This document shows, in pieces, positions 17,833-26,076 of a stretch of 64,000 nucleotides of DNA. Under the pieces are notes generated by a model. That model saw only the letters and a program-made list of their open reading frames with translations, was not told the DNA's origin and ran no database searches. Position 1 is the stretch's first letter. Every line of letters begins with the position of its first letter. The stretch covers positions 1,494,618 to 1,558,617 of the forward strand of contig CP181263.1 in the NCBI GenBank assembly GCA_047834405.1. Reading direction: 5' to 3'. Source of the stretch: Eubacteriales bacterium. Lineage in GTDB: Bacteria > Bacillota > Clostridia > Oscillospirales > Acutalibacteraceae. The position numbers and the translations under genes are program-made.

Positions 17833-17863
17833 AAACGCCTGCCGTTTTCGGCAGGCGTTTTTT
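17833..17863. terminator. Bidirectional terminator
   Basis: AAACGCCTGCCG/CGGCAGGCGTTT. Confidence 0.85.
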
Positions 17864-18905
17864 AATTTTGCTTCATTAGGCTGTTTAGCCGATCGGCAAT
17901 GTGAACGGATTCCTGTATCACGGCGGAAACCTCCTCCATTGCGCTCGACTGTTCCTGGGTCGTATGTAAAGTGATATTTGAGTTGTTTACGGTATCTCGG
18001 ATGGATTCCTGGATCTTCTTTGTCAGCTTCATGATATGTTCGGCCGTATTGTTTGAAGTTTGGGACAAGGTCTGAATTTCCTTTGCAACGACGTCGAATC
18101 CCTTTCCGGCCTCCCCGACGTGCGCCGATTCTATGGATGCGTTGATGCCCAGAATATTTGTATAGGAGGCAATTTGCGTAATGGATTTCAAAACATCATT
18201 AATTTCTTCCGTAATAGTCTCCACTTGCGAAATCTCGTTGTTCAGATCCTGCTGCCGTTCCGTAATATTCTGCGCGGAGGCTGCAAGCTCTTCCAGAGTG
18301 GACGAAATCTCGATGAATTTGCTTGCCAGAAGCTTAGCGAGATGTTCAAGCTCGATTTTTGCGTAGCCGTTTTTGGCGAGTGCATTGACGACAATAAACA
18401 AAACTTCCGCGGCGGCGCTGATGCTCTTCATATCCGTAACCTTGACCTTCTTCACCGCGTCGACCAACCCGTCCCCGCTGACATTGATTTCATTTGCAAC
18501 TTTGCGGTAATGTTCCTCCCGGGGCTTTTCCGAAAGTACCTGTCCGCCCAAAACGGTTCCGATCAGTTCGCCGTTAATGATGATCGGTGCGGCGAAATCA
18601 ATCAGACCCGCGTGGCATTGACCGACAAACGGCCTGCCGGAGCGGGCGGCCATTTCGCCCATGCGGTTGTGGGATTCAGCACAGCGGCGGTCACCAATTT
18701 GGGACTGGTGGACAAATCCGTCGCAAAATCTTGTATAGGAACTGGGATTTGTTACCGGGGTGCCGTTACGGTCTACGGTCACGCTGGCGCAATTCATTCC
18801 GATTGCAAAATTATCCTGGAATTTTTGCAACAAAGAGATGTCGATGATATCGCTTATTTCGAGCAGCTTCATGTCAAGCGTGCCGTCTTCGTTTGTTTTT
18901 ATCAT
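17862..18905 (-). CDS. Cytoplasmic chemoreceptor with PocR ligand-binding domain
   Basis: PocR-like N-terminus ([10 protein letters not shown]...[18 protein letters not shown]) plus MCP hairpin [28 protein letters not shown]. No TM helices. Confidence 0.85.
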
Positions 18906-18973: not shown

Positions 18974-19507
18974 TTATGAATCCGGGTAACGCTTTTCAAG
19001 AAGGGAAAGAAAAGCCTTCATATACTCCGGCAAATCCTGCGGCCGGCGGCTGGAAACGATATTGCCGTCCACGACGACGGGCTTGTCCAGCCACTTTGCT
19101 CCCGCGTTTTCCATATCGTCTTTAATACCCGGCGTGCTTGTGACGTTCTTTCCATTCAGTATTTTTGCGGAAATCAGAACCCAGCCTGCGTGGCAAATCT
19201 GGCCGATTGGTTTATTTCCCCGGTCCATTGCGCGAACCATTTCGATCACTTCCGGAAAACGCCGGAGCCTGTCCGGAGCCCAGCCGCCCGGGACAAGAAG
19301 TGCGTCGTAATCCTCGATGGCGATGTCGCCAAACGCATAATCGGAAGTGGCGGGCACGCCGTATTTTCCGATGTATTTTTCACCGGCTTTTTCTCCAATC
19401 AGATGAACGGTTACACCTTCTTCCCGAAGCCTTAGAACGGGGTACCATAATTCCAAATCCTCAAAGTCGTTTGCAATGAAACAGGCCGCTTTTAATCCTT
19501 TTCTCAT
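18974..19507 (-). CDS. PfpI/DJ-1 family protein (type 1 glutamine amidotransferase-like)
   Basis: Motifs DFEDLE, LVPGG.APD.LR, ICHAG nucleophile elbow and VVVDGNIVSSR.P.DL. Confidence 0.9.
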   Translation of the reverse strand: MRKGLKAACFIANDFEDLELWYPVLRLREEGVTVHLIGEKAGEKYIGKYGVPATSDYAFGDIAIEDYDALLVPGGWAPDRLRRFPEVIEMVRAMDRGNKPIGQICHAGWVLISAKILNGKNVTSTPGIKDDMENAGAKWLDKPVVVDGNIVSSRRPQDLPEYMKAFLSLLEKRYPDS

Positions 19508-19947
19508 AAATAATCCTCCCTTCACTTGCTTTTATATCTGATTTGAATTTTTTCCTAAATTTTATATAATTATTATATCATAATTCCAGGATATGGTCTT
19601 CTCTTTTCACAAATGTTTTTTAATTTTTATGCTTTTTATAGTATTTTTGCTGTTGCGGGAGGAAATCATGCCTGTGTAAAAATAGAGGCGCGAAGGGTAC
19701 CTATGCAAAGGAAGTACCTTGTCTTCCAAAATAAGGCTGCATAAATCGGGAATTTTATAATAAATTCCGAAAAAATACAAAGTAATAAAAAAATTTCAAA
19801 AAAAACTTGCATTTTACTGCTGAATGTAGTAGAATATATCTCGCTGACACGTTAGCCCCCATTACGATATAGGTATTGACGGGATGAACGGAATACAATA
19901 TATGGTATGACAAAACCATAAAGTCATTATAGTAGCCAATATTTTGA

Positions 19948-20021
19948 TGCGGAATTGTGTAAGGGTAGCACGACAGACTCTGACTCTGTTTGTGAGGGTT
20001 CGAATCCTTCTTCCGCAGCCA
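19948..20021 (+). tRNA. tRNA-Gln(CTG)
   Basis: Cloverleaf: TGCGGAA/TTCCGCA acceptor, ACAGA-CTCTGAC-TCTGT anticodon arm, GGTTCGAATCC, encoded CCA. Confidence 0.95.
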
Positions 20022-20046
20022 TGGCCCCAAACGGGGCCGAATTTTT

Positions 20047-20123
<77 letters not shown>

Positions 20124-20870: not shown

Positions 20871-22710
20871 CTAAAAGACTCGTACGAATGCGGTGTTATT
20901 GTCTATACTTAATTGGTCAGTGTCATAATATTGAGCGATATTTGACATTAACTCAATGTCGCAGACGCCGTTTTTAATCCCACTCCAATAATTGCCCATA
21001 ATACTCATGGAACCACTAGATACAAAGATGCCGGTCTGCGTTCCTTCAATGTGGTTGTTATTTACGTTCCCAACTGCTCCCGAGCTGATCCCGATTCCTT
21101 GTGAAAGCGAATGGATATGGTTGTTTTCGACGACAATACCGACCTTGGTACCCAGTAAAATTCCGCGATTGACGGCGCCGGAATTCGTAAGGCCGTAAAT
21201 CTGGTTATTGCGCAACGTAACGTTATCGCCCGCAACTTCAATCAATGCGCCCAGATAGTCTTTATCGCTTGTGACGTTGAGGTTTTGTATGGTGACATTA
21301 CTGCCTGAAATGAACAGGGGGGTTACCGACTCTTTTATTTGCACCAGCCTGTTCCCCGGTTCACCGGAAAGAGTAATGCCGTTTTTGTTGACTACAATAT
21401 TTTCAGAGATTGGGTATTCGCCGGCCAGAATGTGAACGGTGCCGCCCGGATTCACAGCGGAGATGCCGTCCGGAATCGTACCAAAAGGCTTTGTGAGACT
21501 GCCGTTTCCACCCGTTGCACCCGCCTGAACAAAAATATTATCGAGATCCACTTCCGTTTGCACCATTGTTACCTCATAATCCAGCATATCCTGTAGGTCC
21601 GGCATAGTGACATAACCAAGGGTAGGCCGATTACGGAGTAATCCAGCAAGCACATCATTCTGTAAAGACGGAATGAGCATATTGAATTTGGTCAAATTTA
21701 ATCCAAGTGACGGATCGTTAATGGCAGTCTGCATTTCGGCGGAAGTCTGCGCGGCATTAACATCTGCCAATGTCGGATCCGGCTCAACAATCGGTCCGAC
21801 TTTTGAAAGGAATATCGAAGCACTTACACACTTTTTTGCTCCGCCCGCCGCATTGCTGAGGGTGACGGGATAGCCCGTGCAATTGCGCAGGCTGATGATG
21901 TCTCCAGCCGCGGCGTTGATTGTCGTTGTGCCGTAGTTCGCGCCGGAAGCAGTTCCCTAGAGGCTGCTTAGCAGCACGGCTTCATTCTGGTACAGGGCAA
22001 ACTGATTCGGCGTTTGACCGAAAACAGAAAACCAGACCGAATACAGGCCCTCTTTTGTTATGGTGACCTGCCCGGAACCAACCAAATGAGTGATTTCACT
22101 CATCGGGCCGTTGTGATCCAGCGGGACGGAATTGTCTGCCGCTACCGTCTGATTCCCAGTATTATAAAATCATCCCATAAGGGGAAGCGGTTGGAATCGG
22201 CGTACTAGAATAGGTCAGAATCAGCCTTGGAAAATACGGTTCATAGACGATTTTGTTCGTGCCGAACTGAACGATAGAGATGCCGTCGGAATTTGTTAGC
22301 GCAATACCGTTGTTGGCATAAGTGCCGCCAAGCCAGCCGTTGACGAGCTCCGTGATGTCGATTTGAATGGAAGTATATAAATCGGATTCTGAAATGTCGT
22401 AGTGGGAATCTGTCGCCGTATAAGCGGGGCAGCTATAATAGGTGACCGAATTTATATTGAAAGCATCATCGACCCGGTTGACTACAACCTGGCTGAGATT
22501 TGCACCGCTCTTGACAACTACGGTAAGCTGAAGCATTGCGCTTACAACCCTTGAATCCGGCAGGGAAGGCAGAACCATCTGCATCAGACCAATGCAGGTC
22601 CCAAAGTTGGGGTCGGTTCCCGTATAGAGCAGTGGGTAATAGGACAAGTTCGTATCTGGCTGCGCGGAGGACACAAAAGTAGTGTCCGGAAATAAAGTTA
22701 TGGATGGCAT
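20871..22710 (-). pseudogene. DNRLRE + BclA-C-terminal-like + parallel beta-helix surface protein, disrupted
   Basis: One reading path runs from MPSITLFPDTTFVSS (22710) through an extra A at 22166-22169 and an in-frame TAG at 21957-21959 into ORF 20871-21770 (beta-helix repeats). Confidence 0.75.
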
Positions 22711-22730
22711 AATTTTCACTCCTCTGTCCC

Positions 22731-22758
22731 CATAATATGCCTTTGGGGTGGGAGTTGT
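22731..22758 (-). promoter_or_regulatory. Candidate mother-cell sigK promoter
   Basis: ACA-N16-CATATTAT about 20 nt upstream of the ATG at 22710. Confidence 0.45.
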
Positions 22759-22992
22759 TTCGATATTTAAAATTTCAATATTAAAATAGTTTCTGTGCCC
22801 CACTCTTTCAGAATCCCATCTGTTATGCGCGAGATGCGCGGAGCAATACGTTTGCCGGGGCGAGCAGGCTATACAGATAATTTGTGATTCGGAAATATCT
22901 TTTGCGTTTTCGTGTTATAGCGGAATAATCATTAAGTGATGTATAACATGTGGTAAAATAATGAAAAATGATTTTGAAATGAGGTAGGGGAA

Positions 22993-23478
22993 ATGATGGA
23001 TAACGGATTTATTACATTTACCATTGGGAAACAGAAAAACATCGCGTTAATCGCCCATGATGGGAAAAAGCGCGAACTAATCGAATGGTGTGCGGAAAAC
23101 CAGGATATCCTCAGAAACCATTTCTTATGCGGCACCGGAACAACAGCGAGGCTGATTGCGGAAAAAACCGGACTTCCCGTAAAGGGTTATAACAGCGGCC
23201 CTTTGGGCGGCGACCAGCAAATCGGGGCCAAGATTGTAGAAGGTGTAATCAATTTCATCATATTTTTTTCCGACCCATTGGAGGCACAGCCGCATGATCC
23301 GGATGTAAAGGCGTTGTTAAGGATTGCACAGGTTTATGATATTCCTATTGCGAATAATAAGGCGACTGCCGATTTTATGATCCGTTCTCCGCTAATGAAT
23401 CAGGAATATGAGCATAAGGTCATTAATTTCAAACAGAAAATTATTGACCGTGTGAACGATAGCCAACTGATTAAATAG
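22993..23478 (+). CDS. mgsA: Methylglyoxal synthase
   Basis: Motifs IALIAHDGKK, GTGTT, SGPLGGDQQIG and PHDPDVKALLR. Confidence 0.95.
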   Translation: MMDNGFITFTIGKQKNIALIAHDGKKRELIEWCAENQDILRNHFLCGTGTTARLIAEKTGLPVKGYNSGPLGGDQQIGAKIVEGVINFIIFFSDPLEAQPHDPDVKALLRIAQVYDIPIANNKATADFMIRSPLMNQEYEHKVINFKQKIIDRVNDSQLIK

Positions 23479-23496
23479 AAAAGTAGGGGATATATT

Positions 23497-23727
23497 ATGA
23501 TTTCTGTAAAAATTCGAATCGATAGTGTGGATAAAGTAAAAAAATTCTCCTCCATTATCACGAAGGAGAATCTGGACTGTGAACTCGTCGAAGGAGTTTA
23601 TATTCTTGATGCTAAGTCTATTATGGGAATTTTCAGCCTGGATTTAACAAAGCCGATTCAACTCAATATTCACTCCGACGACAAGAAAATCCTGAACAAA
23701 TTGCAAGACTTCATTATCGATGAATGA
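23497..23727 (+). CDS. HPr-family protein lacking the His15 motif (Crh-like)
   Basis: Keeps the Ser46 motif LDAKSIMGIFSL. No N-terminal HARP motif. Confidence 0.8.
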   Translation: MISVKIRIDSVDKVKKFSSIITKENLDCELVEGVYILDAKSIMGIFSLDLTKPIQLNIHSDDKKILNKLQDFIIDE

Positions 23728-23972
23728 TACGCCGTCCGCGCTGGCGCAGGGAATACGGTACGCTTGAATTTTATTCCCAATTGAAAATCGGCTGGTTTGG
23801 ATCCGGGCATTGCGCAGGATATTTGCATTTGCTTCCTGCGGTTATGGGAATTCAAGCAGGCGTTTCAAAGGATTGCTTGCCCAGGAATCCTTTTCCTATG
23901 ATTTTAATCAGGTTTTCTCCATACTGTTCCATTCCCCTGCCGCCGGAGCAAGCGGCAGGGGAATGTTGTGGA

Positions 23973-25500
23973 TTAGTGAAGATTATTATAGGCCGCGGAG
24001 AGCAGCGTGTAATTTCGATCGAAGCTCAGTTCCCAAGCGGCCACGCCTTTCAGGCCGTGCGAAGCGGAATACCGTGCCTTCAAGGCAATTGAGGAAGCAT
24101 CGTCGTAGCTTATAAACGTACTGCTGCCGAACAGGGTGGGAACCTTTGCTGCGGACGAAAAACTCGACAGCAGTCCCTTTGACAGATAATTGGCAACAAT
24201 TGAATCATAACCGATTGCTTTTGCGTTTGTGAACCGGGAATAAAGCCCGTTGTTTTCTGCGCTTACTCCGTTATATATATAACCGTAGAACGGCAAGCCC
24301 ATGACAAGCTTCTTTGCGGGGAAGCCCGCGTTCTGCAGAAACCACGCTGATTTTATACTGCGGGGAGGAATCCGTTGGGGGATAAAGCGGTGCGTTCAGG
24401 TCAGTATAGGTATCCCACGGCCCGTGCATATCGTAAGTCATATCGACCGCGTAATCGACACAGCTTGCCAGCTGCGAAAGCTGTACATTGCGGGTATAAT
24501 TGTCCGAGGAACCGCCCGCAAAGGTCAGGTAATAGTATTTGCCGTCGGCGGCTGCCTGGGCGCTCAGCGCGGAGCGCAGGGCCCGCATAAGCAGGGTGAA
24601 ATTTGTTTTATCCTCAGCCCGGCCGGCAGCGCCGCCGCTCACCGGATATTCCCAATCAATATCCACTCCGTCGAAACCGTACTGCTTAATAAAGGCTGCA
24701 CAGCTTTTTGCAAAGGCTTTGCGCCTCGCATCGGTAAGGGAGGCATCCGAAAACCGGGCGGAACCGTTCCACCCGCCAATGGTGATAAGGGCTTTCAGAT
24801 GGGGGTATTTCTTTTTAAGAGCGGTGAGCTTTTTGAAATTGGCGTAGTCAACCGAAGGGTCATTCACCGCGATTTCCAAATTTGCGCCAATGTCTGCAAA
24901 AGCGTAGTGTACGACATTTATCATGGAAGCCTTGATTTTATCGGGCGTAAAGCCGCTGTGTGCCGACCAGTTCGCGTAATAACCCGCCGTTATTTTTGAC
25001 GGCAGCGCCGAAGCCGGCAATTTTGCCGCCGGTTTTGAGGAAACAGCGGATGACCTCGATGAGCTTGCGGTGCCGCTCGACGTTGGTGCGGAGGAACCGG
25101 ATGAGGAGGAAGAGCCGGCTGCAGAAGAACTGGGAAAGGAGCTCGACGGGCTGCTCACCGTGTGAATGTTTTCTAGGTATGCCCCGTAAACCCAGCCTGT
25201 TCCGTTGTTGAATGTAATTTTATGCCATCCTTGGTAGCTGTTTATTATGTATGCGGTGACTCCTTGCGGAAGGGAGCCGATAACCCGGGATGTTTCGGTA
25301 TAGGTTTCGTGAACATACAGCGGGTTTGCCGTAACGGTACCTGCGCGGATTGTTTCGCTCGTCTTGGTGGATGTTCCGCTTTTCACCGCTGCACCTTTGG
25401 CAAGCTGTGAACCGGAAGTGATACTTACCATCAACACAAAGATGAGTAAGGCGGAACAAGCCTTTTTCCATTTTAGCACTACTGAATACCTCTCTGTCAT
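23973..25500 (-). pseudogene. Secreted SH3b + Ser-rich linker + GH18 glycosyl hydrolase, frameshifted near 24335-24350
   Basis: ORF 24271-25521 has a signal peptide, SH3b (WHKITFNNGTGWVYGAYL) and GH18 motif FDGVDIDWEYP. The C-terminus LQNAGFPAKKLVMGLPFYG...GVAAWELSFD is in another frame (23973-24302). Confidence 0.82.
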
Positions 25501-26076
25501 CAGAATTCCATCTATTTCCAAAGCTTAGGTTGCTTGGCTTAGCGTTTTCCTAGTTATTATAAAAGATTTGCATCGCCGGAAACAATGAATAAATAATGGA
25601 AACCCGGAAGGCCAGGGAGTGAGGGTGTTGTATTGCCCTGTATGTTCCGATGTGGAGTTATGGTGGTTGATGCGGAGATTTTGCTATAAGATAGAGTTTT
25701 ATTCATAGGTTCATACGTTTTCTTCGTTAAAGGTTGGAGGTGAATCCGGCCTTTATTTTTTATAATTTGAAAACTACCGGATATACCGAAGATGATGCCG
25801 GAAGTTAAAGAGCTTTAGCGGTGAGAAAAATGAACAAATTGGCAGGGAGGGGGCAAGGGGTGAGCAGGATTGTTGCAAGCGAATGTTCATACGGCATGAT
25901 GAGTGAAGTGGTTATATTGCCAGCGGTTTTAACGGTACTCACAGCGACAGGAATATGACTGGGAAATTTGAATATTTTGAATTATAAAAAGAATAAGGCC
26001 GTCTGTTTCATCGAATTACATTCGGATTTCGTGTTATTTAACAAAAAATATTGTTTTTATTTATGCTTTATAAGTG

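What the first reader, a model, noticed from the sequence alone, without database searches (positions are those of the whole stretch)
22993..23727. mgsA in an operon with a His-less HPr: candidate dedicated Crh-like regulator of methylglyoxal synthase
Seen: the 76-aa HPr-fold protein starts 18 nt after mgsA, lacks the PTS phospho-His15 motif and keeps the Ser46 motif (DAKSIMG). Established: in Bacillus subtilis the His-less paralogue Crh binds and inhibits MgsA depending on Ser46 phosphorylation, but the two genes are not adjacent there. Inference: a genetically coupled enzyme-inhibitor pair gating the methylglyoxal bypass.
Basis: partly seen in the sequence, partly recalled or inferred. Interest (0 to 1): 0.58.

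Follow-up and report, generated by a model that had tools for sequence, protein, structure and literature searches.

The report
Methylglyoxal synthase with His-less HPr partner
A second methylglyoxal synthase gene and a tiny HPr-like protein without the phosphocarrier histidine form a two-gene cassette that stays together across one genus of gut and fermenter Clostridia, so the small protein is a good but unproven candidate for a built-in brake on production of toxic methylglyoxal.

Summary
A 161-aa methylglyoxal synthase (22993-23478) is followed after 18 nt by a 76-aa HPr-fold protein (23497-23727). The small protein has no His15 loop and keeps the Ser46 motif DAKSIMG.

- This mgsA is an accessory second copy of the long, E. 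coli/Thermotoga type. A short housekeeping mgsA lies elsewhere in the genome.
- The small protein belongs to a large, undescribed family of 76-aa His-less HPr proteins in Clostridia. Most members sit alone beside a radical-SAM methylthiotransferase, not beside mgsA.
- The mgsA-linked copies form one derived clade.

The adjacency holds in all 19 genomes that carry this clade (16 of 20 species of the genus plus 3 others). Sequence similarity stops about 100 nt outside the two genes. No genome has one gene without the other. Both genes are under strong purifying selection.

Outside this clade the link is absent: 15 other long-form mgsA genes and 186 wide-family loci show no pairing.

No binding evidence could be obtained. 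A read-through AlphaFold model failed, and no MgsA-HPr fusion protein exists in the collections searched.

Verdict: a real, conserved operon. The Crh-like inhibitor reading is plausible, at about 0.5. It is a new variant of a known kind.

The scan had noted the wide family before on other DNA, but never next to mgsA.

The parts
22852..22992 (+). Upstream region of the cassette with a candidate promoter and the mgsA ribosome-binding site
   Evidence: The scan finds a sigma-70-like match TTGCCG-18-GATAAT at 22852-22881, 9 of 12, which is a consensus match only. GGTAGGGG precedes the ATGATG start. Between close species, DNA similarity extends only about 80-120 nt upstream of mgsA and is then lost.
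22993..23478 (+). mgsA2: accessory long-form methylglyoxal synthase, 161 aa
   Evidence: It scores 185 bits on TIGR00160, above the cut-off. Its best solved relatives are 1vmd (3e-47) and the E. coli-type 1b93 (1.5e-43), matched over residues 8-154. The catalytic motifs are invariant in 33 long-form sequences. It is 43% identical to the genome's other, short mgsA at G000:C1:728714-729088. Median pairwise dN/dS is 0.04.
23479..23496 (+). 18-nt intergenic spacer with a Shine-Dalgarno (GGGGA) and no terminator
   Evidence: Read directly from the sequence. In 19 orthologous cassettes the distance from the mgsA stop to the next ATG is roughly 15-40 nt, purine-rich, with no hairpin. No terminator-like site lies on the + strand between the genes.
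23497..23727 (+). 76-aa His-less, shortened HPr-fold protein of the mgsA-linked clade
   Evidence: The model has HPr topology with pLDDT 91.5 and Foldseek TM 0.75 to T. tengcongensis HPr. D38, A39, K40, S41, I42, M43, G44 and F46 are each at least 99% conserved in 190 unique family sequences. Lys stands where His15 aligns, and this stretch is 5 residues shorter than in HPr. The clade is monophyletic with SH-aLRT 99. Median pairwise dN/dS is 0.08.
23930..23965 (.). Perfect 14-bp hairpin between the cassette and the convergent GH18 pseudogene; candidate bidirectional terminator
   Evidence: The inverted repeat I2 is 100% complementary with an 8-nt loop. It is followed by TTGTGGATT on the + strand. 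This is an inference and is not required for the finding.

Best explanation
The two genes form an autonomous two-gene operon. One gene encodes an extra, long-form methylglyoxal synthase (MgsA2). The other encodes a dedicated regulatory partner drawn from a family of minimal HPr proteins that cannot carry phosphate on histidine.

The most likely mechanism runs as follows. The small protein is made together with MgsA2 and binds it directly. In its non-phosphorylated form it holds the enzyme inactive. Phosphorylation of Ser41, the Ser46 equivalent, by the genome's HPr kinase/phosphorylase when glycolytic intermediates are high releases the enzyme. The methylglyoxal bypass therefore opens only under sugar-phosphate overload. 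This copies the logic of Bacillus subtilis Crh-MgsA, but with non-orthologous parts that are wired together genetically.

Shown here: the operon structure, the fold, loss of the His site, invariance of the Ser motif, clade-specific conserved adjacency, purifying selection, and the presence of HPrK.

Inferred: binding, the sign of the effect (inhibition), and phosphorylation.
For: (1) Tight pairing. The gap is 18 nt with its own SD and no terminator. Spacers in 19 orthologous cassettes are similarly short.

(2) Conserved adjacency.
- In the genus, 16 of 20 species genomes carry both genes, and they are adjacent in all loci checked.
- 4 of 20 carry neither and none carries only one.
- The same pair occurs in G156 and in two Oscillospiraceae MAGs, L057 and L058.

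(3) The unit is what is kept.
- The flanks fall into at least 14 different contexts.
- Between close species, DNA similarity ends about 80-120 nt outside the pair.

(4) Evolution of the partner.
- The linked proteins form one clade (SH-aLRT 99, stem 0.71) nested in the wide family.
- They are distinct from the genus's own housekeeping paralogue.
- They have their own residues at positions 24, 28, 29, 32, 35, 55 and 71.

(5) The Ser motif.
- K40-S41-I42-M43-G44 is essentially invariant in 190 sequences.
- By contrast, 7 of the genome's 11 true HPr paralogues have lost Ser46. The fold therefore does not require the motif.
- HPrK is present in this genome.

(6) Both genes are strongly constrained, with dN/dS of 0.04 and 0.08.

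(7) Precedent. Non-phosphorylated Crh binds and inhibits B. subtilis MgsA (PMC12291648 and 10.1101/2024.02.22.581430, citing Landmann 2011 and Dickmanns 2018).

(8) Support by analogy.
- The same short HPr domain is naturally fused to PfkB sugar kinases.
- In one other lineage, long-form mgsA is directly followed by hprK.

(9) This genome has no canonical Gln15-type Crh. Its only His-less HPr proteins are the two short ones.
Against: - There is no direct evidence of contact.
- No MgsA-HPr fusion protein was found from either side.
- The AlphaFold model of the in-frame read-through product was too poor to read (pLDDT 58.6, pTM 0.41).
- 15 other long-form mgsA genes (60-76% identical) lack any HPr-like neighbour.
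- None of 186 wide-family loci outside the clade has mgsA nearby (28 order genomes, 78 genome contigs, 80 metagenome contigs). The link arose once, so it counts as one evolutionary event.
- Joint loss is expected for adjacent genes whatever their function. The pattern of both or neither is therefore weak evidence.
- The solved entry 6f2c, which I recall as the Crh-regulated B. subtilis enzyme, matches only the core residues 16-132. It lacks the N- and C-terminal extensions of MgsA2.
- The start of helix 1, which in HPr and Crh contributes to partner contacts, is remodelled here.
- HPrK is almost universal in the order (194 of 201 genomes), so its presence discriminates nothing.
Confidence: 0.5

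Rival explanations
1. The 76-aa protein is a general Ser-phosphorylated signalling protein. It might be a co-effector of CcpA/LacI-type regulators or a regulator of other enzymes. In this reading it is only co-transcribed with mgsA2, so both appear under the same conditions, and it does not touch MgsA2.
For: The wide family is usually a lone gene beside a methylthiotransferase (earlier scan notes). That arrangement fits a general regulator. The Ser46 motif is kept in every member, whatever its neighbour. Crh in Bacillus also serves CcpA.
Against: - The genus already keeps a housekeeping copy of the family in all 20 genomes.
- The linked copy is an extra, diverged paralogue that is never found without mgsA2.
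- The pair stays together while its flanks change.
- The His15 and Arg17 positions used by HPr and Crh to contact CcpA fall in the shortened stretch.
Confidence: 0.2
2. The small protein binds MgsA2 but acts positively or structurally. It might stabilise the hexamer, activate the enzyme, or alter phosphate inhibition, rather than act as an inhibitor released by phosphorylation.
For: The genomic evidence is the same as for the main model and says nothing about the sign of the effect. The substitutions specific to linked MgsA2 lie in three places: the N-terminal arm (positions 6 and 8), next to the catalytic HD (G24), and the C-terminal helix (134-155). From my recollection of the E. coli enzyme, these are the regions that carry inter-subunit phosphate allostery.
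Against: The only experimental precedent, Crh-MgsA, is inhibitory. Long-form MgsA works alone in E. coli and stands alone in 15 other genomes of the order, so no obligatory subunit is needed.
Confidence: 0.15
3. The pair is a selfish or mobile poison-antidote-like cassette. MgsA2 makes a toxic product and the small protein neutralises it. This keeps the pair together and lets it move between genomes.
For: - Flanks are variable and the unit has sharp edges.
- Its distribution in the genus is patchy, with at least 3 gain or loss events.
- It is present on one contig of a genome assigned to another family (G156).
- The cassette lies 2.9 kb from a tRNA pair.
- Cassette GC is 43% and 35%, against 48.7% for the genome.
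Against: - No flanking repeats or mobility genes were found at the cassette edges.
- Low GC is shared by the housekeeping paralogue (38%), so it reflects composition rather than transfer.
- G156 is a 76%-complete MAG, and the contig may be contamination.
- This reading still requires the same inhibitory binding as the main model.
Confidence: 0.08
4. The adjacency has no functional meaning. A short HPr paralogue landed next to mgsA2 once in an ancestor and has been carried along since.
For: The link arose once and the clade is monophyletic. It is absent everywhere else.
Against: The neighbours on both sides have been replaced repeatedly while the 18-to-40-nt junction survived in 19 genomes at dS of about 1.5. 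The partner shows a long, then strongly constrained, branch.
Confidence: 0.07

Closest known systems
Bacillus subtilis Crh-MgsA regulatory pair (Landmann et al. 2011; Dickmanns et al. 2018)
   Same: A His-less HPr-fold protein that keeps the Ser46 motif is associated with a methylglyoxal synthase. The proposed logic is that the non-phosphorylated form inhibits and HPrK-dependent Ser phosphorylation releases. The profile of the family hits solved Crh at E 2e-7.
   Different: - The genes are adjacent here. In Bacillus, crh lies in the glmR-whiA-crh operon (PMC10714963).
- The protein is 76 aa, not 85. The stretch around the His15 loop is 5 residues shorter, and Lys rather than Gln aligns with residue 15.
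- It belongs to a separate family and scores 19.5 bits on the closest NCBIfam HPr-family model, NF010354, whose cut-off is 123.
- The enzyme is a second, long-form MgsA.
- The interaction is untested.
Canonical PTS phosphocarrier HPr (PtsH, PF00381)
   Same: The fold and secondary-structure order are the same. The KSIMG helix-2 motif is the same.
   Different: There is no His15, so the protein cannot accept phosphate from Enzyme I. It is below the Pfam cut-off on its own. The genome has 11 true HPr paralogues in addition.
Wide family of 76-aa His-less HPr proteins of Clostridia (annotated only as 'HPr family phosphocarrier protein' or 'HPr domain-containing protein')
   Same: The length, the shortened loop stretch and the invariant DAKSIMGIFSLDL motif are the same. 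The window protein nests inside this family.
   Different: Wide-family members are lone genes divergent from a UPF0004/radical-SAM methylthiotransferase, or are fused to PfkB kinases, or lie in Enterocloster phages. Only the clade described here sits behind mgsA, and it has its own residue signature.
E. coli / Thermotoga maritima methylglyoxal synthase (PDB 1b93, 1vmd)
   Same: The full-length match includes the C-terminal helix, and the catalytic motifs are conserved.
   Different: Control of those enzymes is by phosphate allostery alone, as far as I know. No protein partner is encoded beside them.
HPr as a direct enzyme regulator in E. coli (for example the HPr-glycogen phosphorylase complex, PDB 9s8k, and HPr-Rsd, 4xwj)
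   Same: An HPr fold is used as a protein-binding regulator of a metabolic enzyme. These complexes appear among the fold matches.
   Different: Those cases use the ordinary His15-bearing HPr, with the His phosphorylation state as the signal. Here the His site has been deleted.

Membership tests
Methylglyoxal synthase (TIGR00160 / NF003559) | Score above the curated equivalog cut-off | tested here: met
   TIGR00160 gives 185.2 bits against a cut-off of 146.9. NF003559 gives 202.1 bits against 84.
Methylglyoxal synthase (TIGR00160 / NF003559) | Catalytic and phosphate-binding motifs (HD..K, GTGTT, GGDQQ, HDPD) | tested here: met
   All are present in the window protein and invariant in 33 long-form sequences. 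They align with 1vmd and an E. coli-type MgsA (5h3l).
HPr superfamily (PF00381) | Open-faced beta-sandwich with beta-alpha-beta-beta-alpha-beta-alpha order | tested here: met
   The AF2 model has pLDDT 91.5 with elements E2-6, H11-23, E28-32, E35-38, H42-46, E54-58 and H64-68. Foldseek gives TM 0.75 to HPr 3le3, and the top 40 hits are HPr, Crh or NPr.
HPr superfamily (PF00381) | Pfam gathering score | tested here: not met
   The window protein scores 19.1 bits against 23. However, 49 of 51 relatives hit the model at E <= 0.01, and the family profile hits solved HPr at 5e-8.
PTS phosphocarrier HPr (functional PtsH) | His15 in the GxHxRP active-site loop | tested here: not met
   There is no His in residues 1-58. 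This stretch is 5 residues shorter and reads S-V-D-K-V-K. All 11 true paralogues of the genome have G(L/I)HAR.
Crh (catabolite repression HPr of Bacilli) | His15 replaced, so no PTS function | tested here: met
   His is absent.
Crh (catabolite repression HPr of Bacilli) | Ser46 in the K-S-I-M-G context as the HPrK/P target | tested here: met
   The K40-S41-I42-M43-G44 sequence motif is at least 99% conserved in 190 sequences.
Crh (catabolite repression HPr of Bacilli) | Actual phosphorylation of Ser46 by HPrK/P | not testable with these tools
   HPrK is encoded in the genome. Phosphorylation needs a kinase assay.
Crh (catabolite repression HPr of Bacilli) | Orthology: full-length 85-aa protein, scoring on the curated HPr-family models, in the glmR-whiA-crh context | tested here: not met
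   The closest NCBIfam HPr-family model, NF010354, gives 19.5 bits against a cut-off of 123. The protein is 76 aa with a shortened stretch at the loop. It forms a family separated from canonical HPr by a branch of length 3. Its genomic context is different.
Crh (catabolite repression HPr of Bacilli) | Binds and inhibits MgsA in the non-phosphorylated state | not testable with these tools
   Only gene-neighbourhood evidence is available. The read-through AF2 model was uninformative.
Toxin-antitoxin-like or mobile cassette | Mobility signatures (flanking repeats, integrase or transposase at the edges, presence on plasmids or phages) | tested here: not met
   No flanking repeats were found. No close relative occurs on plasmids or phages; the hits there are wide-family members at 32-48% identity. 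The flanks are variable, which is compatible with mobility but not specific to it.

The most novel reading that the evidence does not exclude
The whole family of 76-aa His-less HPr proteins of Clostridia may be a set of enzyme-clamping regulatory modules read out through Ser41. The family has thousands of members, is also carried by Enterocloster phages, and is annotated only as 'HPr family'. The mgsA2-linked clade and the natural PfkB-kinase fusions would then be the first two visible targets of a so far undescribed layer of post-translational carbon-flux control that runs parallel to CcpA.
Probability: 0.3. Interest if true: 0.72.

Novelty: new variant of a known kind. Interest (0 to 1): 0.57.

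Why it matters
Methylglyoxal synthase opens a toxic overflow route from glycolysis. How bacteria keep it shut is known at the protein level only for Bacillus subtilis (Crh-MgsA).

A hard-wired enzyme-partner operon in Caproiciproducens-type Clostridia would have three consequences:
- It would show that HPr-fold control of MgsA evolved independently with different parts.
- It would give the first functional handle on a very widespread, unstudied family of minimal His-less HPr proteins.
- It would offer a simple two-gene system for testing how HPr kinase signalling gates an enzyme.

There is also a practical side. These organisms are chain-elongating fermenters and gut commensals, and methylglyoxal, lactate and 1,2-propanediol flux matters for product yields and cross-feeding. 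No paper describing this pairing or this family was found in the library searches.

Tried and rejected
Neighbourhoods were surveyed with the genome search, the search for related loci and tblastn instead.

Only 2 extra linked loci came from them.

(3) AlphaFold on the in-frame read-through product failed.
- The query was TAG read as Q (P0121), with alignment A3.
- The aim was to see whether the two domains dock.
- The first alignment, A2, was misaligned by MAFFT.
- A3 had only 5 rows covering MgsA, and the model was poor (pLDDT 58.6, pTM 0.41).
- The result is uninformative, and the tool gives no contacts in any case.

(4) The Rosetta-stone search found no MgsA-HPr fusion from either side.

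(5) Co-occurrence with HPrK is uninformative, because HPrK is in 194 of 201 genomes of the order.

(6) Net charge and pI do not separate linked from wide-family proteins.

(7) Horizontal transfer inferred from low GC was rejected as weak, because the housekeeping paralogue is equally AT-rich.

(8) The Dickmanns 2018 paper is not held. The Crh-MgsA interface residues could therefore not be compared, and what I say about N-terminal helices rests on my memory of its abstract.

(9) Conservation of the mgsA-hprK adjacency of G105 could not be tested, because it is the only genome of its genus held.

Full report
**What is in the window**

Two same-strand genes lie at 22993-23478 (161 aa) and 23497-23727 (76 aa). 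They are separated by 18 nt that carry a GGGGA ribosome-binding site and no terminator.

The first gene is a methylglyoxal synthase by the curated NCBI models: TIGR00160 at 185 bits (cut-off 146.9) and NF003559 at 202 bits. It keeps the catalytic motifs AHDGKK, GTGTT, GGDQQ and PHDPD, which are invariant in 33 related sequences.

The second gene has an HPr fold.
- The protein alone is below Pfam's cut-off for PF00381 (19.1 bits against 23).
- 49 of 51 relatives hit that model.
- A profile of the family finds solved HPr and Crh at E 5e-8 to 5e-7.
- An AlphaFold model (pLDDT 91.5) has the exact HPr element order.
- Foldseek returns only HPr, Crh or NPr in the first 40 places, with TM up to 0.75.

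The protein has no His before residue 59. The stretch that holds the His15 loop in HPr is 5 residues shorter here and reads S-V-D-K-V-K. Residues 38-44 are DAKSIMG, which aligns with the Ser46 region of HPr.

The genome (2.53 Mb, one contig, a Caproiciproducens by the names of its nearest relatives) has two mgsA genes.
- The window copy is a long form. It matches the family model over positions 2-141 and resembles the Thermotoga and E. coli enzymes over residues 8-154.
- A short-form copy lies at G000:C1:728714-729088 and is 43% identical.

The genome also has 11 true HPr paralogues. All have G(L/I)HAR, and only 4 keep Ser46. HPr kinase is present. A second 76-aa His-less HPr lies at G000:C1:2398692-2398904 and is 36% identical. 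No Gln15-type Crh is present.

**The family of the small protein**

It belongs to a large family. There are 2,322 database clusters at E <= 1e-3, and 117 of 201 sampled genomes of the order have a match. Many Lachnospiraceae members exist too.

In 190 unique sequences, D38, A39, K40, S41, I42, M43, G44 and F46 are each at least 99% conserved. Lys stands where His15 aligns.

Members are normally lone genes. They are transcribed divergently from a UPF0004/radical-SAM methylthiotransferase (five of five tested). This includes the window genome's own second copy. Earlier first-stage notes of this scan on other genomes describe the same lone 76-aa gene in the mtaB neighbourhood.

Two other contexts turned up:
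- A C-terminal fusion to PfkB-family sugar kinases occurs in 398-402-aa proteins. The 398-aa form is seen on more than 40 contigs from three sources.
- Copies occur in roughly 100-kb Enterocloster phages.

I found no paper on this family.

**How far the mgsA adjacency is conserved**

| Sample | Loci or genomes | With mgsA beside the HPr-like gene |
|---|---|---|
| Order genomes, best 30 loci | 30 | 2 (own genome and G156) |
| Species-representative genome contigs | 80 | 2 (L057, L058) |
| Metagenome contigs | 80 | 0 within 3 kb |
| Other long-form mgsA genes of the order (60-76% identical) | 15 | 0 have an HPr-like neighbour |
| Genus, species genomes | 20 | 16 have both genes |

Inside the genus the picture is sharp.
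- 16 of 20 species genomes have both the long-form mgsA (83-100% identical) and a 63-100% identical small protein.
- The two are adjacent in all 15 other loci examined.
- The other four genomes have neither gene, and no genome has only one.

With G156, L057 and L058, that makes 19 cassettes.

The flanks differ. Upstream flanks fall into 16 similarity groups and downstream flanks into 14. Even between close species, DNA similarity stops about 80-120 nt outside the two genes.

The intergenic spacers stay short, and several downstream regions show clear hairpin terminators.

On an rpoB tree the four cassette-less species are scattered, which needs at least three gain or loss events. I give that little weight, because one deletion removes both neighbours whatever their function.

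The retention of the junction while everything around it changed, at synonymous divergence near 1.5, is the stronger argument. Both genes are under strong purifying selection, with median dN/dS of 0.04 and 0.08.

**Origin of the partner**

In a tree of 102 sequences the 19 linked proteins form one clade (SH-aLRT 99) on a long stem (0.71). The clade is nested in the wide family and is separate from the genus's housekeeping paralogue group.

The clade has its own conserved residues: E24, C28, E29, E32, H35, Q55 and D71, where the wide family has F/Y, F, D, S, Y, D and P. This pattern suggests a recruited paralogue that changed its surface and was then frozen.

The linked MgsA2 proteins differ from unlinked long-form enzymes at ten positions. 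Eight of them lie in three places:
- the N-terminal arm (positions 6 and 8)
- G24, right after the catalytic HD
- the C-terminal helix (positions 134-155)

The other two are positions 42 and 88. This is suggestive only, because the clade is a single lineage.

**Mechanism**

The best-supported reading is a Crh-like control of MgsA2.
- The small protein is co-translated with the enzyme, binds it and keeps it inactive.
- Ser41 phosphorylation by HPrK/P under sugar-phosphate excess releases the enzyme.

The precedent is B. subtilis, where non-phosphorylated Crh binds and inhibits MgsA and preferred sugars trigger Crh phosphorylation (PMC12291648 and 10.1101/2024.02.22.581430, citing Landmann 2011 and Dickmanns 2018). 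There crh lies in the glmR-whiA-crh operon (PMC10714963).

Three observations support the Ser-motif part of the model:
- The Ser motif is invariant in this family, although 7 of 11 true HPr paralogues in the same genome have lost it.
- The same domain occurs fused to PfkB kinases.
- In one other lineage, long-form mgsA is directly followed by the genome's only hprK.

These points fit a Ser-gated enzyme-binding module. None of them shows binding.

The attempt to model the in-frame read-through product failed technically. No MgsA-HPr fusion exists in the collections searched. The paper with the Crh-MgsA interface is not held.

I put the full model at about 0.5. My estimates for its parts are:

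| Claim | Estimated probability |
|---|---|
| Functional coupling of the two genes | about 0.85 |
| Direct binding | about 0.55 |
| Inhibition relieved by Ser phosphorylation | about 0.35-0.4 |

**Rivals**

- A general Ser-P signalling protein that is merely co-expressed (0.2).
- A positive or structural partner (0.15).
- A mobile poison-antidote-like cassette (0.08). It lacks repeats or mobility genes at the edges.
- A meaningless inherited adjacency (0.07).

**Comparison and novelty**

The protein works like Crh on paper, but it is not a Crh.
- It fails the curated HPr-family models.
- It is 9 residues shorter, with a shortened stretch at the loop.
- It belongs to its own family.
- It sits in a different context.

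The enzyme is a true MgsA, but of the long type rather than the type for which Crh control was shown. I therefore class the finding as a new variant of a known kind.

The wider family, its PfkB fusions and its phage copies are probably the more novel matter. They deserve their own follow-up.

**Context noted**

No glyoxalase I was found in the genome. Two DJ-1/PfpI deglycase-type genes are present, one of them 3.5 kb upstream at 18974-19525. This is a possible glutathione-independent route for dealing with methylglyoxal. It lies outside the conserved cassette, and I did not test any link.

Noticed in passing
proteins P0133, P0134, P0135, P0141 (not in the window): There are natural fusions of a PfkB-family sugar kinase (PF00294, residues 3-307) with a C-terminal short His-less HPr domain that keeps DAKSIMGIFSLDLSKP. 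The 398-aa form is seen on more than 40 contigs from JGI, Logan and ENA. The commoner 204-207-aa cluster members cover only kinase residues 41-241.
   Followed up: partly
L045:1402-2967 (G105:C16), and protein P0221: In one other Oscillospirales genome a long-form mgsA is directly followed, on the same strand, by the genome's only HPr kinase gene. A 297-aa metagenomic gene call carries both MGS and HPr-kinase domains. Conservation could not be tested, because only one genome of that genus is held.
   Followed up: partly
G000:C1:2398692-2398904 (minus); L055:3190-3411: This is the housekeeping second copy of the 76-aa His-less HPr family, 36% identical to the window protein. It is divergent from a UPF0004/radical-SAM methylthiotransferase and is present in all 20 genomes of the genus. 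Its function is unknown.
   Followed up: partly
phage records OP172753-OP172757, OQ326496, MT835522: Short His-less HPr-like genes (35-39% identical to the window protein) are carried by roughly 100-kb Enterocloster bolteae phages and by a gut phage contig.
   Followed up: no
whole genome G000 (places listed): There are eleven His15-bearing HPr paralogues in a 2.5-Mb genome. Seven have Lys, Arg or Asn in place of Ser46, so they can only be PTS carriers. No Gln15-type Crh is present.
   Followed up: partly
window 18974-19525 (minus) and 17862-18905 (minus): A DJ-1/PfpI/YhbO-type deglycase (TIGR01382, 168 bits) lies 3.5 kb upstream of the cassette. Beside it is a protein with a PocR-type sensor region and a methyl-accepting-chemotaxis signalling domain. 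No glyoxalase I (TIGR00068) was found in the genome.
   Followed up: partly
window 23973-25521 (minus): A GH18 chitinase-like gene with an SH3 domain is split into two overlapping frames (24271-25521 and 23973-24302). This looks like a frameshifted pseudogene. The region is similar in the closest species, G202.
   Followed up: partly
window 20871-21770 (minus) and 22162-22803 (minus): A NosD-like right-handed beta-helix protein and a DNRLRE-domain protein lie between the tRNA-Gln/tRNA-Pro pair (19948-20123) and the cassette. The closest species, G202, does not share the DNRLRE gene upstream of its cassette.
   Followed up: partly
proteins P0170-P0175 (not in the window): Singleton metagenomic gene calls of 377-422 aa combine an MGS domain (71-74% identical to the window enzyme) with AraC-type HTH and cupin domains. 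They may be real fusions or calling artefacts.
   Followed up: no
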